A stretch of 64,000 nt of DNA. Origin: Escherichia phage vB_EcoM_Maryam. Shown here one piece after another: positions 13,435-46,062 of the stretch. Every line of letters begins with the position of its first letter. Position 1 is the first letter of the stretch. Where the stretch lies: the sequence record PQ799574.1. One strand, 5' to 3'. The position numbers and the translations under genes are program-made. The notes below the pieces were generated by a model that was not told where the DNA came from, ran no database searches, and worked only from the letters and a program-made list of their open reading frames with translations.

Positions 13435-13438
<4 letters not shown>
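12950..13438 (+). CDS. membrane protein (paralogous array member)
   Basis: 162 aa; TM helices; C-terminal FITECRKLK. Confidence 0.5.
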
Positions 13439-14407
<969 letters not shown>

Positions 14408-17111: not shown

Positions 17112-17141
17112 GTTTACTTTTCCTCTTGACTGTGGTATAAT
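17112..17141 (+). promoter_or_regulatory. T4-type early promoter (GTTTAC ... TGTGGTATAAT) for regB
   Basis: near-consensus -35 and extended -10. Confidence 0.7.
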
Positions 17142-17637: not shown

Positions 17638-18183
17638 ATGAGAAAAGCACTACTCGCTGGTCTATTGGCCATTTCTATGATGGCACATAGCTCCGAGCAT
17701 ACTTTCAGTAATGTCCAACTCGATAACATGCGTTACGCGTATCAATTCGGGGAACAATTTTCTAAGGATGGAAAATATAAAACACACAAAAATATCCACA
17801 AGAGCGGATTAGGTCATATAATGGCTGCCATTTTATGGCAAGAAAGCTCTGGCGGAGTTAATTTAAAATCTAAACCAAAGCATCACGCCTACGGAATGTT
17901 CCAAAATTATTTGCCTACTATGCGAGCAAGAGTTAAGGAACTTGGTTATAATATGACCGATGCTGAAATAAAAAGAATGTTGAATAAACGGTCCAATTCA
18001 GCTTCCTGGGCGTACATTGAACTTTCTTATTGGTTAAATATACATAAGGGCGATATAAGAAAAGCAGTATCCTCTTATAATTCGGGATGGAATGTTAAAG
18101 CAGGTTCTAAATATGCTTCTGAAGTCCTAGAAAAGGCTAATTACCTTAAAAATAATAAACTTTTGGAAATAGTAAATGACTAA
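17638..18183 (+). CDS. secreted lytic transglycosylase-like protein
   Basis: signal peptide MRKALLAGLLAISMMAHS; SLT-like motif WQESSGG...YGMFQ. Confidence 0.6.
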   Translation: MRKALLAGLLAISMMAHSSEHTFSNVQLDNMRYAYQFGEQFSKDGKYKTHKNIHKSGLGHIMAAILWQESSGGVNLKSKPKHHAYGMFQNYLPTMRARVKELGYNMTDAEIKRMLNKRSNSASWAYIELSYWLNIHKGDIRKAVSSYNSGWNVKAGSKYASEVLEKANYLKNNKLLEIVND

Positions 18184-18517
18184 AATTTTGGTTTTATGTA
18201 TAGGATTAATTTCATTTTCTGCGTTAGCAGATACATCATATACTGAAATTAGAGAGTATGTAAACCGTACTGCAGCGGATTATTGCGGGAAAAATAAAGC
18301 ATGCCAAGCTGAATTTGCGCAGAAATTAATATATGCATATAAAGACGGAGAAAGAGATAAATCAAGCAGATACAAAAATGATACATTGTTAAAACGATAT
18401 GCTAAAAAGTGGAATACCTTAGAATGTTCAGTTGCGGAGGAGAAAGATAAAGCCGCTTGTCATTCAATGGTTGACCGTTTGGTAGATTCTTATAATCGAG
18501 GATTGAGTACTAGATGA
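18176..18517 (+). CDS. secreted Cys-containing protein
   Basis: 113 aa; signal peptide MTKILVLCIGLISFSALA. Confidence 0.5.
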   Translation: MTKILVLCIGLISFSALADTSYTEIREYVNRTAADYCGKNKACQAEFAQKLIYAYKDGERDKSSRYKNDTLLKRYAKKWNTLECSVAEEKDKAACHSMVDRLVDSYNRGLSTR

Positions 18518-18993
18518 TTGTAAAATATATCAAGGGCGATATTGTCGCCCTATTTCTTCAAGGTAATATTATTGCGCACGGGTGCAATTGTTTTCATACT
18601 ATGGGTTCAGGTGTAGCGGGTCAATTAGCCAGAGCCTATCCCAAAATTTTAGAAATAGATAAAACCACTACTGAGTACGGTTCTCGTGATAAATTAGGCG
18701 ATATGTCTATTGTTTTTAAACATAAACCTAATGGTTTTGGTATATGCTATAACCTGTATACGCAATACGAACCAGGTCCTAATCTTGATTATGGTGCTTT
18801 AGTAAACTGCATGATAGAATTAAATCTACAGGCAGAAACCCTTTTGTTTAAACCAGTAATTTACATTCCACGCATAGGTTGTGGTATTGCTGGCGGCGAT
18901 TGGGATAAGGTTTCTAAATTAATCGACATGTTTACTCCTGATATTGATTTAATAGTGGTGGATTATGAAAGTACATTACCCACATCCGTTTGA
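18514..18993 (+). CDS. macro domain protein (ADP-ribose binding/processing)
   Basis: 159 aa; GDIV...GNIIAHGCNC...GSGVAGQL resembles macro-domain signature. Confidence 0.55.
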   Translation: MIVKYIKGDIVALFLQGNIIAHGCNCFHTMGSGVAGQLARAYPKILEIDKTTTEYGSRDKLGDMSIVFKHKPNGFGICYNLYTQYEPGPNLDYGALVNCMIELNLQAETLLFKPVIYIPRIGCGIAGGDWDKVSKLIDMFTPDIDLIVVDYESTLPTSV

Positions 18994-19177
18994 TCCTAAA
19001 AACAAAGTGGAAATTATTCGTCAATGGGAACGCATTTGCCGTACTAAATGTCCAATTAATAGTCCACATGATGTAGATAAAGACTACATTGGAACATTCG
19101 TTGAATATACCTTTATTGATAAGAAAGGTCGTAAACAACATGTAGAAGAATATTGCTTAAAGGTTACATGGTTATGA
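18965..19177 (+). CDS. hypothetical protein
   Basis: 70 aa. Confidence 0.45.
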   Translation: MKVHYPHPFDPKNKVEIIRQWERICRTKCPINSPHDVDKDYIGTFVEYTFIDKKGRKQHVEEYCLKVTWL

Positions 19178-19380
19178 GCCAAACTAGTATTCTTAAAAAT
19201 GCCCACTGTGAAAAGTGTAAGTGGCCGGTTGTTTTTGCTTTATGCAACGATGAAATGGCTTGTGATTTCGATTATTGGTGCTATTGTTCTAATAAAGGAT
19301 GCATCAATCATAAAGGTGAAGGATTTTATTCAGGATTTTATCCTTATCCTGATTTCGTTAAAGAAGGTAAACCGAAATGA
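19174..19380 (+). CDS. Cys-rich putative zinc-binding protein
   Basis: 68 aa; CEKC...CNDEMAC...CYCSNKGC. Confidence 0.45.
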   Translation: MSQTSILKNAHCEKCKWPVVFALCNDEMACDFDYWCYCSNKGCINHKGEGFYSGFYPYPDFVKEGKPK

Positions 19381-19546
19381 ATAGTTTTGAGTTACAATAT
19401 GAAGTGTTACGTGAACTTGATAATTTAATTGAACTCGCTGTTAATAAAGGTTTTGCCATTGGAATTGGTCAAAAAGATACTGATCATTTAACTGTGGAAA
19501 TATTTAAGCAAAAGCGAATTATTTTAAAACTTCTGGAAATTAATAT

Positions 19547-19732
19547 ATGAGCCTAAGCAAAGAACAAAAAGACAAACTCTTTTCTCTTATCCACGAAGTT
19601 ATGGATAAAAATAGTGAATTGGAAAAAGTTTGTAATGAATGCGGTCCTTTTAGTGCAAACGAGTACGAAGAACTTTCTAAAGAATTCGATAATAAAGAAC
19701 AAGAACTCATTAATTATATAAATTCCTTATGA
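19547..19732 (+). CDS. small acidic protein (paralog family)
   Basis: 61 aa; N-terminal xxEQK pattern shared by neighbours. Confidence 0.45.
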   Translation: MSLSKEQKDKLFSLIHEVMDKNSELEKVCNECGPFSANEYEELSKEFDNKEQELINYINSL

Positions 19733-43555: not shown

Positions 43556-45234
43556 AGAATTTTAAACTAAACCGAGTTAGGTATCAAAATATAATGTCAG
43601 TAGGTGGAAATCCTATTGACATTCAATTAGATAAGGTTCAAAAAACTCTTATTACTGGACGAAATGGCGGTGGTAAGTCTACTATGCTAGAAGCCATCAC
43701 ATTTGGGCTTTTTGGTAAGCCATTTCGTGATGTAAAGAAAGGTCAATTAATAAACAGCACAAATAAGAAAGAACTTTTAGTTGAACTGTGGATGGAATAT
43801 GATGAGAAAAAGTACTATATCAAAAGAGGACAAAAACCAAACGTTTTCGAAATCACCGTTAACGGTACACGTCTTAATGAATCTGCCAGCAGTAAAGATT
43901 TCCAAGCAGAATTTGAACAGCTTATCGGAATGTCATATGCCAGTTTCAAGCAGATTGTTGTCCTTGGTACAGCAGGGTATACCCCTTTCATGGGTTTGTC
44001 GACCCCTGCACGAAGAAAGCTTGTGGAAGACCTGCTTGAGGTAGGAACATTAGCTGAAATGGATAAGCTTAATAAAGCACTAATACGTGAATTAAATTCG
44101 CAGAACCAAGTGCTTGATGTTAAAAAAGATAGTATTATCCAACAAATTAAAATATATAATGATAACGTTGAACGCCAGAAAAAATTGTCTGGTGACAACC
44201 TTACTCGTCTGCAGAATATGTATGATGATTTGGCAAAAGAAGCTAGAACGCTAAAATCGGAAATAGAAGAAGCTAATGAAAGATTAGTTAATATTGTTTT
44301 AGATGAAGACCCGACTGATGCATTTAATAAAATCGGTCAAGAAGCATTTTTAATTAAATCAAAAATTGACTCGTATAATAAAGTCATTAATATGTATCAT
44401 GAAGGTGGATTATGTCCAACCTGTTTGTCACAATTAAGTTCCGGTGATAAAGTTGTTTCTAAAATTAAAGATAAAGTTTCTGAATGTACGCATTCATTTG
44501 AACAGCTTTCAACACACCGTGATAATTTAAAAGTTCTTGTTGATGAATACCGAGATAATATTAAAACCCAGCAGTCGTTGGCAAATGATATTCGCAATAA
44601 AAAGCAATCTCTAATCACGACGGTAGATAAAGCTAAAAAAGTTAAAGCGGCTATAGAAAAAGCATCTTCTGAGTTTATTGACCATGCTGATGAAATAGCA
44701 CTGCTTCAAGAAGAACTTGATAAAATTGTTAAGACAAAAACTAATTTAGTAATGGAAAAATACCACCGAGGAATTTTGACTGATATGCTCAAAGATTCTG
44801 GTATTAAAGGTGCTATTATTAAAAAGTACATTCCATTATTTAATAAGCAGATTAACCATTATCTTAAAATAATGGAAGCGGATTATGTGTTTACATTAGA
44901 TGAAGAATTTAATGAGACAATTAAATCCCGTGGTCGTGAAGATTTTAGTTATGCTTCATTTAGTGAAGGTGAAAAGGCACGAATTGATATTGCTCTTTTA
45001 TTTACTTGGCGTGATATTGCTTCTATCGTATCTGGTGTTAGTATTAGTACATTAATTCTTGATGAAGTGTTTGATGGGTCATTTGATGCCGAAGGTATTA
45101 AAGGTGTAGCTAATATTATAAATTCAATGAAAAACACTAATGTTTTTATAATTTCGCATAAAGACCATGACCCGCAAGAATATGGTCAGCATCTTCAAAT
45201 GAAGAAAGTTGGTCGATTTACTATAATGGTTTAA
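43552..45234 (+). CDS. 46: recombination endonuclease subunit gp46 (Rad50/SbcC-like ATPase)
   Basis: 560 aa; Walker A GRNGGGKST, central coiled coil with CPTC zinc hook, C-terminal signature; GTG start. Confidence 0.9.
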   Translation: MKNFKLNRVRYQNIMSVGGNPIDIQLDKVQKTLITGRNGGGKSTMLEAITFGLFGKPFRDVKKGQLINSTNKKELLVELWMEYDEKKYYIKRGQKPNVFEITVNGTRLNESASSKDFQAEFEQLIGMSYASFKQIVVLGTAGYTPFMGLSTPARRKLVEDLLEVGTLAEMDKLNKALIRELNSQNQVLDVKKDSIIQQIKIYNDNVERQKKLSGDNLTRLQNMYDDLAKEARTLKSEIEEANERLVNIVLDEDPTDAFNKIGQEAFLIKSKIDSYNKVINMYHEGGLCPTCLSQLSSGDKVVSKIKDKVSECTHSFEQLSTHRDNLKVLVDEYRDNIKTQQSLANDIRNKKQSLITTVDKAKKVKAAIEKASSEFIDHADEIALLQEELDKIVKTKTNLVMEKYHRGILTDMLKDSGIKGAIIKKYIPLFNKQINHYLKIMEADYVFTLDEEFNETIKSRGREDFSYASFSEGEKARIDIALLFTWRDIASIVSGVSISTLILDEVFDGSFDAEGIKGVANIINSMKNTNVFIISHKDHDPQEYGQHLQMKKVGRFTIMV

Positions 45235-45289
45235 TTTATAAGAGATTATGCTTTAATTTATTAGAGTATAATCTCTATGGAGGAAAAAC

Positions 45290-45478
45290 ATGGAATATTC
45301 AACTGGACAGCATCTATTAACTATTCCTGAAATAAAACGATATATTCTGAGAAATAATTTTTCTAATGAAGAGCATATAGTTACTGAATCTATGCTTAGG
45401 AATGCATTTAAAGCAGAATATACAAAAATAATGTCCAATAGAAATGAAGCTTGGACTGTTACTGATTATTATGACTAA
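45290..45478 (+). CDS. hypothetical protein
   Basis: 62 aa. Confidence 0.45.
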   Translation: MEYSTGQHLLTIPEIKRYILRNNFSNEEHIVTESMLRNAFKAEYTKIMSNRNEAWTVTDYYD

Positions 45479-45487
45479 AGGTGTATT

Positions 45488-45877
45488 ATGACTAAAATTA
45501 CTGTGAATTATACTGTTGATGTAAAAGATATTCAGCCAAAACACGTGCGTTCTGAATCAAATCCACAAAACCAAAATAAAATTCGTCGCGCATGGGTTTT
45601 GTCTCTTTCTGATAACGCAATGGAAGTTATTCAGAATAAAATTAAATCTGCACCTGCTCGTCATGCGTATTATGAAGCTATCGATCGTGAAGTAAGTAAT
45701 AAATGGATTGAACTAATGCGCAAACATACTACAGAATCCCTAAACGCCGGTGCTAAATTTATTATGACTTCATGTGGTGAACGCCTTGAAGATGATTATT
45801 GTGGTAATGCAGATGAACGTCTAATTGTTGCTGCTCAAATTGTTGCGGAAACAATTGCGGCTGATTTTAATCGTTAA
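45488..45877 (+). CDS. rpbA: RNA polymerase-binding protein RpbA
   Basis: 129 aa; position between gene 46 and gene 45. Confidence 0.7.
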
Positions 45878-45878
45878 T

Positions 45879-45905
45879 TGCTTTATTAAATTAGTTATAA
45901 AATTA
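45879..45905 (+). promoter_or_regulatory. putative middle promoter for gene 45 (MotA box TGCTTTA)
   Basis: TGCTTTA at 45879-45885 followed by an A/T -10-like element; spacing slightly short. Confidence 0.35.
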
Positions 45906-45932
45906 AATCTCATTTGAATTGAAGGAAATTAC

Positions 45933-45992
45933 ATGAAACTGTCTAAAGATACTACTGCTCTGCTTAAAAATTTCGCTACTATTAACTCGTAA
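45933..45992 (+). pseudogene. 45: truncated sliding clamp gene 45: first 19 codons then stop
   Basis: MKLSKDTTALLKNFATINS matches recalled gp45 N-terminus; expected GIMLKSG continuation is replaced by TAA; rest of the 228-codon gene absent. Confidence 0.8.
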
Positions 45993-46062
45993 TTAAAATC
46001 GCAGCAGTTTTTTCATTCAGAACATCGTTAGAAGCTTTGATGATGTAAGTTACTTTAGACAT
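45982..46062 (-). pseudogene. motA: truncated motA: first about 25 codons on minus strand, then unrelated codons and stop
   Basis: minus-strand MSKVTYIIKASNDVLNEKTAAILIT matches recalled MotA N-terminus; similarity ends at 45988, abutting the gene 45 fragment. Confidence 0.75.

What the first reader, a model, noticed from the sequence alone, without database searches (positions are those of the whole stretch)
18514..18993. Macro-domain protein
Macro domains bind or hydrolyse ADP-ribose conjugates. In a phage that ADP-ribosylates host proteins (Alt/ModA/ModB) and faces ADP-ribosylating defences, this is a plausible counter-defence or regulatory factor.
Basis: partly seen in the sequence, partly recalled or inferred. 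Interest (0 to 1): 0.45.

Follow-up and report, generated by a model that had tools for sequence, protein, structure and literature searches.

The report
T4-type anti-DarT2 macrodomain (tk.4/adfM)
This gene is the T4 tk.4 (adfM) counterpart in a T4-like phage, a small macrodomain enzyme that most likely strips ADP-ribose off phage DNA to defeat the bacterial DarTG2 defence, a role reported for T4 in a 2025 preprint.

Summary
Window 18514..18993 (+) is a real 159-aa gene. It passes Pfam's Macro threshold, gives a confident AlphaFold model (pLDDT 94), and its closest solved folds are TARG1, BT1257, Poa1p and the DarG macrodomain.

The window comes from a Tequatrovirus. The gene sits between vs and tk.3, so it is the ortholog of T4 tk.4. 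That gene has been known as an "A1pp/macro" ORF since 2006. A November 2025 preprint named it adfM after showing that a T4 knockout becomes sensitive to DarTG2.

Two refinements come from this analysis:
- **Active site:** it is the glutamine type of SCO6735 and BT1257, not the lysine type of DarG and TARG1. Q84 is invariant in 121 of 121 relatives. The protein also lacks DarG's toxin-binding domain.
- **Divergent allele:** this phage's protein is only 57% identical to T4 Tk.4, while the flanking genes are 97-100% identical. It is closer to a Dhakavirus allele (74%).

Most likely mechanism: hydrolysis of thymidine-N3-ADP-ribose on single-stranded phage DNA. This rests on orthology and conserved residues and was not tested on this allele. 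Verdict: already known, low to moderate interest.

The parts
18514..18993 (+). tk.4 / adfM coding sequence: 159 aa, a single macrodomain with no other domain
   Evidence: ORF; Pfam Macro above cut-off; AF2 pLDDT 94; Foldseek top hits TARG1, BT1257, Poa1p, DarG; synteny with T4 tk.4
18577..18591 (+). Codons H22-G23-C24-N25-C26, the 'HGCNC' motif. H22 and N25 correspond to SCO6735 H24 and N27, which were tested by mutagenesis.
   Evidence: H22, G23, N25 and C26 are present in 119 of 121 relatives, the other two having gaps. N27S nearly abolishes SCO6735 activity (PMC9411070). Poa1p has the same HSCNC motif.
18763..18765 (+). Codon Q84, the glutamine at the position of the catalytic lysine of TARG1 (K84) and DarG (K80)
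   Evidence: hhalign of the family against TARG1 aligns LYTQ with LITK. The profile alignment to BT1257 aligns Q with Q. Q is present in 121 of 121 sequences. SCO6735 Q85 is the structural equivalent and is essential.
18868..18903 (+). Codons P119-W130, 'PRIGCGIAGGDW', the diphosphate-binding loop. A126 occupies the position of TARG1 D125.
   Evidence: BT1257 has PRIGCGLAGGKW and SCO6735 has PRIGCGLAGGTW. hhalign maps A126 to TARG1 D125.
18580..18990 (+). Divergence island relative to T4: 46-64% nucleotide identity in the core of the island (about 18620-18990) against 97-100% in the flanks. This is an allele (cassette) replacement within tk.4.
   Evidence: Sliding-window identity; DNA alignment; per-gene protein identities
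18533..18551 (+). Conserved G+C-rich hairpin followed by a T-rich tract, 20 nt inside the coding sequence. Role unknown; possibly an attenuator or RNA-stability element.
   Evidence: Terminator-like hit; predicted folding energy -12.9 kcal/mol; stem intact in T4 and in a Dhakavirus, absent in CC31
18176..18517 (+). vs (valyl-tRNA synthetase modifier), the upstream gene. Its stop codon overlaps the tk.4 start, suggesting translational coupling.
18965..19177 (+). tk.3 homolog, the downstream gene. It overlaps the tk.4 3' end by 29 nt here, against 4 nt in T4.
17113..17141 (+). Candidate sigma-70-type (early) promoter upstream of regB that could drive regB-vs.1-vs-tk.4. Inferred only.
   Evidence: TTTACT-17-TATAAT with TG. 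The number of promoter-like sites in the region is no higher than in shuffled sequence, so this is weak evidence.

Best explanation
The gene is this phage's tk.4/adfM, a stand-alone 17.5-kDa macrodomain ADP-ribosyl glycohydrolase that acts as an orphan antitoxin against the host DarTG2 defence.

Background (established knowledge): DarT2 transfers ADP-ribose from NAD+ to N3 of thymidine in single-stranded DNA at TNTC-type motifs, which blocks phage replication.

Inferred mechanism: Tk.4 is made from the regB-vs.1-vs-tk.4 transcription unit. It binds the ADP-ribose in the macrodomain cleft formed by the H22/N25 motif and the G122-G128 diphosphate loop. Q84 positions the distal ribose, and a water molecule cleaves the N-glycosidic bond. 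This releases free ADP-ribose and restores thymidine.

The chemistry is expected to follow the glutamine-type SCO6735 mechanism, not the lysine-dependent DarG/TARG1 mechanism. The protein has no DarT-binding domain, so it should act on the lesion whichever DarT2 variant made it.

Shown here: fold, family, orthology, conserved residues and the allele swap. Shown by others: the T4 knockout phenotype, and enzymology on SCO6735 and PhiKZ AdfM. Inferred: activity and role of this particular allele.
For: - Macro fold.
- Orthology to T4 tk.4: same locus across Tequatrovirus, Dhakavirus and Karamvirus, with 57% identity over 155 aa.
- T4 genetics: tk.4 was the single significant hit on a DarTG2 host, and its knockout is DarTG2-sensitive. 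T4 lacking adfA and adfN stays DarTG2-resistant, which pointed to a further factor.
- Conserved residues: H22 and N25 in 119 of 121 relatives (the other two have gaps), Q84 in all 121, and the GxG[IL]AGG.W loop in nearly all.
- Residue mapping: Q84 aligns with TARG1 K84 and with the BT1257 glutamine.
- SCO6735 has the same Gln, Asn and loop. It cleaves dT-ADPr on DarT-modified DNA with high turnover, needs Q85 and N27, and protects against DarT toxicity.
- PhiKZ AdfM, another stand-alone phage macrodomain, removes ADP-ribose from TNTC DNA in vitro.
- DarG profiles match the macro part: NCBIfam 1.5e-6; PADLOC 4e-7 for this allele and 1e-9 for T4.
- The T4-type protein is detected in T2-infected cells.
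Against: - No experiment exists on this allele. It is only 57% identical to the tested T4 protein, and the difference is a discrete cassette swap, so specificity could differ.
- The T4 evidence is genetic and comes from a preprint. No biochemistry on any Tk.4 protein was found in the papers searched.
- DarG's catalytic lysine is absent. The DarG profile scores (about 28 bits) are far below the family cut-off of 250.
- Macrodomains of this class are promiscuous. SCO6735 also acts on PARP1-linked protein ADP-ribose and on uracil-ADPr in RNA.
- The direct residue mapping to SCO6735 and DarG is transitive, through TARG1 and BT1257. A plain pairwise alignment to BT1257 placed the Q84 region differently.
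Confidence: 0.8

Rival explanations
1. It is a broader nucleic-acid de-ADP-ribosylase. Besides or instead of DarT2 lesions on DNA, its relevant substrate would be N3-ADP-ribosyl-uracil on RNA, or lesions from other still unknown ADP-ribosylating defences. The divergent alleles would then reflect different substrate preferences.
For: SCO6735, the glutamine-type relative, is highly active on uracil-ADPr in single-stranded RNA and more efficient than DarG. tk.4 is an allelic hot spot within otherwise near-identical genomes. The family is very widespread in phages, with 2,773 records.
Against: No bacterial uracil-ADP-ribosylating defence appears in the papers read. CmdTAC, which ADP-ribosylates mRNA, defends strongly against wild-type T4 carrying tk.4. 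In the T4 screen the only reported conditional phenotype of tk.4 was on DarTG2.
Confidence: 0.12
2. It is an ADP-ribose-1''-phosphate phosphatase or O-acetyl-ADP-ribose deacetylase, a small-molecule housekeeping enzyme, as the database labels 'phosphatase', 'A1pp' and 'Poa1p-like' imply.
For: It resembles yeast Poa1p by sequence (E=1.2e-9, shared HxCNC motif) and by fold. The annotations appear.
Against: The labels come from domain homology only (Nolan et al. 2006). Of the three Poa1p residues mutated in PDB entries 6lfs, 6lft and 6lfu, only His is kept: S30 aligns with T29 and F152 with A126 (my mapping). No T4 pathway known to me produces Appr-1''-p. This reading would not explain the DarTG2-specific knockout phenotype.
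Confidence: 0.04
3. It reverses or edits the phage's own ADP-ribosylation of host proteins (Alt, ModA, ModB) or ModB RNAylation, acting as a regulator and not a counter-defence.
For: T4-like phages encode these transferases (established knowledge). SCO6735 and TARG1 remove some protein-linked ADP-ribose.
Against: Alt and Mod modify arginine. The enzymes of this class characterised in the papers read act on acidic-residue and thymine/uracil linkages, and arginine-specific macrodomains such as MavL are described as a separate type (title). No such phenotype was reported for T4 tk.4 in the text read. The gene is not adjacent to alt, modA or modB in the stretches examined.
Confidence: 0.03
4. It neutralises DarT2 mainly by binding the toxin, without needing catalysis.
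For: Catalytically dead SCO6735 Q85A inhibits DarT in vitro more strongly than DarG K80A or TARG1 K84A. Allele diversification would fit co-evolution with a protein partner.
Against: The protein lacks DarG's C-terminal DarT-binding domain: it is 159 aa, and the DarG profiles are matched only over positions 2-145 of about 330. The catalytic-site residues are invariant across the family, which argues that catalysis is under selection. An active-site Asn mutant of PhiKZ AdfM loses activity.
Confidence: 0.05

Closest known systems
Phage T4 Tk.4 = AdfM (anti-DarT factor, macrodomain), NP_049723
   Same: Same locus (vs - tk.4 - tk.3), same size, same single-domain architecture and same invariant residues H22, N25, Q84 and W130. 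It is the ortholog.
   Different: Only 57% amino-acid identity although the neighbouring proteins are 97-100% identical. The T4 diphosphate loop is GAGIGKGNW where this protein and the family consensus have GCGIAGGDW. The C-terminus is 4 aa longer and overlaps tk.3 by 29 nt. This allele has not been tested.
Streptomyces coelicolor SCO6735 (PDB 5E3B), and Bacteroides BT1257 (2AFC/2FG1)
   Same: Stand-alone ALC1-like macrodomains. They have glutamine at the position of the TARG1/DarG lysine, a conserved His and Asn in the first motif, and a PRIGCGLAGG.W loop. BT1257 is the best-scoring solved sequence. SCO6735 cleaves dT-ADPr DNA and counters DarT.
   Different: They are bacterial chromosomal genes and share about 25% identity with this protein. 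They carry a longer mobile loop after the Gln (a 6-residue insertion in the profile alignment). The SCO6735 lysines K34 and K89 implicated in DNA binding could not be mapped here.
DarG antitoxin of DarTG2 (PDB 5M31/5M3E/5M3I; NCBIfam NF048014)
   Same: Same macro fold and class. It removes ADP-ribose from thymidine in single-stranded DNA and neutralises DarT2. Its profile matches this protein at 1e-6 to 1e-9.
   Different: DarG uses a catalytic lysine (K80) where this protein has Gln. DarG has a second, DarT-binding domain (profiles of about 330 positions) and is encoded next to darT. The score of 27.8 bits is far below the 250-bit cut-off.
Human TARG1/OARD1 (PDB 4J5S)
   Same: Top Foldseek hit (TM about 0.74-0.83). 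hhalign probability is 98.6%. It hydrolyses thymine- and uracil-linked ADP-ribose.
   Different: The catalytic dyad K84/D125 is replaced by Q84/A126. Identity is about 20%. TARG1 is eukaryotic.
PhiKZ gp104 AdfM (chimallivirus DarG2-like macrodomain)
   Same: A stand-alone phage macrodomain that counters DarTG2. Hydrolysis of TNTC-ADPr DNA has been shown biochemically.
   Different: It is a different phage lineage and is imported into the phage nucleus. Sequence relatedness to Tk.4 was not examined here.
T4 AdfN (gp30.3, NADAR)
   Same: The same strategy, an orphan antitoxin-like glycohydrolase in T-even phages that erases DNA ADP-ribosylation.
   Different: It has an unrelated fold (NADAR), is specific for guanine lesions made by DarT1, and does not counter DarTG2. 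It is encoded elsewhere in the genome.
Yeast Poa1p (PDB 6LFQ-6LFU)
   Same: Macro fold and a very similar N-terminal half, including the HxCNC motif.
   Different: It is an Appr-1''-p phosphatase. Its F152 and S30 are not conserved here. The match is the source of the misleading 'phosphatase' label.

Membership tests
Macro domain superfamily (Pfam PF01661) | Sequence match above the curated gathering score | tested here: met
   33.1 bits against a 22-bit cut-off, covering profile positions 2-117 of 118
Macro domain superfamily (Pfam PF01661) | Three-layer alpha/beta/alpha macro fold | tested here: met
   AF2 pLDDT 94; the top 50 Foldseek PDB hits are all macro-fold proteins with probability 1.00
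ALC1-like / TARG1-like macrodomain class | Closest relatives by sequence and structure are TARG1, DarG, SCO6735, BT1257 and Poa1p rather than MacroD, PARG or viral Mac1 types | tested here: met
   Profile search: these score 1e-19 to 1e-10, while coronavirus Mac1 scores about 5e-3. The Foldseek order agrees.
Gln-type subgroup (SCO6735/BT1257-like thymidine-ADPr hydrolases) | Glutamine at the position of TARG1 K84 / DarG K80 | tested here: met
   Q84 aligns with TARG1 K84 and with the BT1257 Gln. It is invariant in 121 of 121 sequences. The equivalence of SCO6735 Q85 with K84/K80 is taken from PMC9411070.
Gln-type subgroup (SCO6735/BT1257-like thymidine-ADPr hydrolases) | Conserved His and Asn in motif 1 (SCO6735 H24, N27) and the GCG[IL]AGG.W diphosphate loop (G128) | tested here: met
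   HGCNC at residues 22-26 and PRIGCGIAGGDW at 119-130. Residue-level alignment to SCO6735 was seen only for the loop.
Gln-type subgroup (SCO6735/BT1257-like thymidine-ADPr hydrolases) | Hydrolysis of thymidine-N3-ADP-ribose on single-stranded DNA | not testable with these tools
   Needs an enzyme assay
AdfM (T4 tk.4) orthologous group | Conserved position between vs and tk.3/tk in Tevenvirinae | tested here: met
AdfM (T4 tk.4) orthologous group | Full-length sequence similarity to T4 Tk.4 | tested here: met
   57% identity over 155 aa, E=1e-69. This is a divergent allele.
AdfM (T4 tk.4) orthologous group | Required for phage growth on DarTG2 hosts | not testable with these tools
   Shown only for the T4 allele
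DarG antitoxin (NCBIfam NF048014 / PADLOC DarG) | Score above the equivalog cut-off | tested here: not met
   27.8 bits against a 250-bit cut-off
DarG antitoxin (NCBIfam NF048014 / PADLOC DarG) | Catalytic lysine (K80) | tested here: not met
   Gln at that position
DarG antitoxin (NCBIfam NF048014 / PADLOC DarG) | C-terminal DarT-binding domain | tested here: not met
   The protein has 159 aa. Only profile positions 2-142 of 338 and 3-144 of 329 are matched. The 120 closest relatives are all 95-199 aa.
DarG antitoxin (NCBIfam NF048014 / PADLOC DarG) | Encoded next to a darT toxin gene | tested here: not met
   The neighbours are vs and tk.3. A bacterial homolog examined also had no adjacent gene with a DarT Pfam annotation.
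Poa1p-type ADP-ribose-1''-phosphate phosphatase | Residues probed in Poa1p structures (H23, S30, F152) | tested here: inconclusive
   H23 aligns with H22 and is kept; S30 aligns with T29; F152 aligns with A126 (alignment, with chain offset inferred from the F152A mutant chain). Activity was not testable.

The most novel reading that the evidence does not exclude
tk.4 may be an arms-race cassette. T-even phages that are otherwise about 98% identical carry macrodomain alleles only 50-75% identical, exchanged across genera; this allele is closer to a Dhakavirus allele than to T4's. The alleles could differ in what they erase (DarT2 variants, uracil-ADPr on RNA, or lesions from undiscovered ADP-ribosylating defences) or in whether they also bind the toxin. 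The conserved hairpin just inside the 5' end could be a regulatory element or a recombination boundary.
Probability: 0.15. Interest if true: 0.55.

Novelty: already known. Interest (0 to 1): 0.25.

Why it matters
ADP-ribosylation of phage DNA by DarT toxins is a common bacterial defence. Knowing which phage genes erase it helps predict host range for T4-like phages, including those used therapeutically. This gene is the DarTG2-specific eraser of T-even phages and complements AdfN, which handles DarTG1. Two points from this analysis could guide future biochemistry and explain differences in DarTG2 sensitivity between near-identical phages: the enzyme is glutamine-type like SCO6735, not a truncated DarG, and the locus is an allelic hot spot. 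Both are refinements of a published function, not a new system.

Tried and rejected
- **Residue-level alignment to DarG and SCO6735.** The PDB sequence search prints only the five best alignments. Fragment queries showed SCO6735 only for the diphosphate loop and never showed DarG. The Q84 = K80 equivalence therefore rests on hhalign to TARG1 plus the structural alignment published in PMC9411070.
- **Pairwise alignment to BT1257.** Single-sequence phmmer alignments place 'NLYTQ' against 'GIYKD'. I rejected this in favour of the profile alignment (N with N and Q with Q, plus a 6-residue insertion), which agrees with the published alignment.
- **First structure job.** I reran it without that row.
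- **adfA (gp61.2) in the window.** tblastn found nothing, and T4 16-24 kb has no match in the window. adfN (gp30.3) lies elsewhere in T4.
- **Promoter scan.** The number of promoter-like sites was no higher than in shuffles, so early expression stays an inference.
- **Anti-CmdTAC role.** Rejected because CmdTAC defends strongly against wild-type T4.
- **Not run.** I did not run the large representative-library search or the genome-contig scan, because they would not change the verdict.

Full report
**1. Observation**

Window 18514..18993 (+) is an intact ORF of 159 codons. Its ATG overlaps the stop codon of the upstream gene as ATGA.

- The protein matches Pfam Macro (PF01661) above the curated threshold: 33.1 against 22 bits, E=6.2e-8, nearly the full profile.
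- It matches PHROG 335 at 1.4e-71.
- It matches several solved macrodomains by sequence: BT1257 at 1.7e-10, plus Poa1p, SCO6735, Mtb DarG and TARG1.
- A 62-sequence family profile raises these to between 1e-19 and 5e-10.
- An AlphaFold2 model built on that alignment is confident, with mean pLDDT 94 and pTM 0.89.
- Its best Foldseek matches in the PDB are TARG1, BT1257, Poa1p and the DarG macrodomains, all with probability 1.00.

**2. Identity of the gene**

The region is 100% identical to Escherichia phage vB_EcoT_BCU-2 and 95-99% identical to hundreds of Tequatrovirus genomes. On the window's + strand the gene order is regB, vs.1, vs, this gene, tk.3, then small ORFs, tk and rI. This is the T4 order read on the opposite strand, where the gene between vs and tk.3 is tk.4, annotated 'contains A1pp phosphatase motif'. 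The same arrangement holds in a Dhakavirus and in Karamvirus CC31. The gene is therefore the tk.4 ortholog.

**3. What is already published**

- The A1pp/macro match of tk.4 orthologs was reported in 2006 (PMC1524935).
- T4 lacking both adfA and adfN stays resistant to DarTG2, which suggested a further factor (PMC11825919).
- A November 2025 preprint screened a T4 transposon library on a DarTG2 host. It found tk.4 as the single significant hit, showed that a clean knockout is DarTG2-sensitive, noted structural similarity to Mtb DarG, and renamed the gene adfM (10.1101/2025.11.20.689424).
- A 2026 paper showed that PhiKZ gp104, also called AdfM, removes ADP-ribose from DarT2-modified TNTC DNA in vitro (PMC13309987).
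- The T4-type protein, which is 100% identical in T2, was detected in T2-infected cells. Its mRNA was captured with the host sRNA ArcZ, without any effect on protein level.

**4. Active site**

The 120 closest relatives plus this protein were aligned.

- H22, G23, N25 and C26 are present in all ungapped sequences.
- G33, A35, D49, N80, Y82 and Q84 are present in 121 of 121 sequences.
- P119, G122, G124 and W130 are essentially invariant.

Profile-profile alignment to human TARG1 (98.6% probability) places Q84 on the catalytic K84 and A126 on D125. Its numbering reproduces the published K84 and D125, and the printed PDB alignments of TARG1 chains show the same residues. The profile alignment to BT1257 pairs N80 with N and Q84 with Q.

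The SCO6735 paper states, from structural superposition, that SCO6735 Q85 is equivalent to TARG1 K84 and DarG K80. It also reports the following (PMC9411070):
- Q85A/E and N27S abolish or nearly abolish activity.
- SCO6735 lacks both TARG1 catalytic residues.
- It cleaves thymidine-linked ADP-ribose on DarT-modified DNA with high turnover.
- It protects against DarT toxicity.

SCO6735 and BT1257 also share the PRIGCGLAGG.W loop with this protein's PRIGCGIAGGDW.

I conclude that Tk.4 is a glutamine-type ALC1-like macrodomain of the SCO6735/BT1257 kind and not a truncated DarG. The family profile also scores BT1257, TARG1 and SCO6735 above DarG. The DarG models are matched only over their macro part and far below cut-off. 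None of the 120 relatives is longer than 199 aa. One bacterial homolog examined sits among unrelated genes, with no neighbour annotated as DarT.

**5. A divergent allele**

The protein is only 57% identical to T4 Tk.4. A sliding-window comparison shows 97-100% nucleotide identity to T4 on both sides. Identity falls to 46-64% across the core of the island, roughly 18620-18990.

| Protein | Window vs T4 | Window vs Dhakavirus |
|---|---|---|
| RegB | 98.7% | 58.8% |
| Vs.1 | 99.4% | 67.2% |
| Vs | 97.4% | 44.9% |
| Tk.4 | 57.4% | 74.3% |
| Tk | 99.0% | 71.1% |
| RI | 100% | 25.0% |

This allele is 74% identical to the Dhakavirus allele although the flanking proteins are only 25-71% identical. 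The T4 allele is the more deviant from the family consensus, with loop GAGIGKGNW.

In the phage collection, 281 records carry this allele at 95% identity or more, and 221 carry the T4 type. Further classes exist at 74-78% identity to this allele and at 80-90% identity to T4. So tk.4 is a recombination or allele-replacement hot spot. All alleles keep the catalytic-site residues.

**6. Mechanism**

The best-supported model has four steps.
- DarT2 ADP-ribosylates thymidine N3 in single-stranded phage DNA.
- Tk.4 binds the ADP-ribose in its cleft.
- Q84, held in place by N25, positions the distal ribose, and a water-mediated reaction releases ADP-ribose and restores thymidine.
- Replication proceeds.

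This rests on orthology, conserved residues and analogy with SCO6735. Nothing was measured on this allele, and the T4 evidence is genetic and from a preprint. I put the confidence at about 0.8.

Expression from an early promoter upstream of regB (17113-17141) is plausible but weakly supported, because promoter-like sites are no more frequent than in shuffled sequence.

**7. Rivals**

- **Wider nucleic-acid role.** A role such as removing uracil-ADPr from RNA is possible, because SCO6735 is very active on that substrate. CmdTAC, however, still defends against wild-type T4.
- **Phosphatase.** The 'phosphatase' label is inherited from Poa1p homology. It does not explain the DarTG2 phenotype.
- **Reversal of Alt/Mod modification.** Reversal of arginine ADP-ribosylation is not supported by the substrate range of the closest characterised enzymes.
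- **Toxin binding.** This could contribute, since SCO6735 Q85A inhibits DarT in vitro. The invariant catalytic residues argue that catalysis is the selected function.

**8. Verdict**

The glutamine-type assignment and the allele swap are modest additions. Interest is 0.25.

Noticed in passing
window 18533-18551 (+): A perfect 7-8 bp G+C-rich hairpin (AGGGCGAT-ATT-GTCGCCCT, predicted folding energy -12.9 kcal/mol) followed by a T-rich tract lies 20 nt inside the tk.4 coding sequence. The stem is identical in T4 and in a Dhakavirus (one loop change) but absent in CC31. It lies in the 5' segment of tk.4 that is still identical to T4, a few tens of bases upstream of where the alleles begin to diverge. 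It could be an attenuator, a stability element or a coincidence of codon choice.
   Followed up: partly
window 19174-19550 (+): Two small ORFs lie between tk.3 and tk.2 with no counterpart in T4. They are 68 aa (Cys-rich, PHROG 2306) and 57 aa (PHROG 3452), both of unknown function.
   Followed up: partly
window about 44000-46000: Colinearity with typical Tequatrovirus genomes breaks near window 45,990. Downstream sequence matches the rIIA / topoisomerase / ndd / endonuclease region as separate places. The 100%-identical GenBank record PV290051.1 is only 46,924 bp long. This may be an assembly join or a rearrangement.
   Followed up: no
window 17638-18183 (+): The vs.1 ortholog is annotated 'endoribonuclease' in PV290051.1. 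Other records and the 2006 paper describe a lytic transglycosylase (SLT) domain, so this looks like an annotation carried over from the neighbouring regB.
   Followed up: no
window 13435-13875 (+): A Nudix hydrolase (nudE ortholog) lies about 5 kb upstream. T4 NudE hydrolyses free ADP-ribose (PMC9503650), so it could dispose of the ADP-ribose released by Tk.4. This is speculation.
   Followed up: no
window 18965-18993 (+): tk.4 and tk.3 overlap by 29 nt here, against 4 nt in T4. T4 has an extra 13 nt at the allele's 3' boundary. The last three residues of this Tk.4 are predicted to be disordered.
   Followed up: yes
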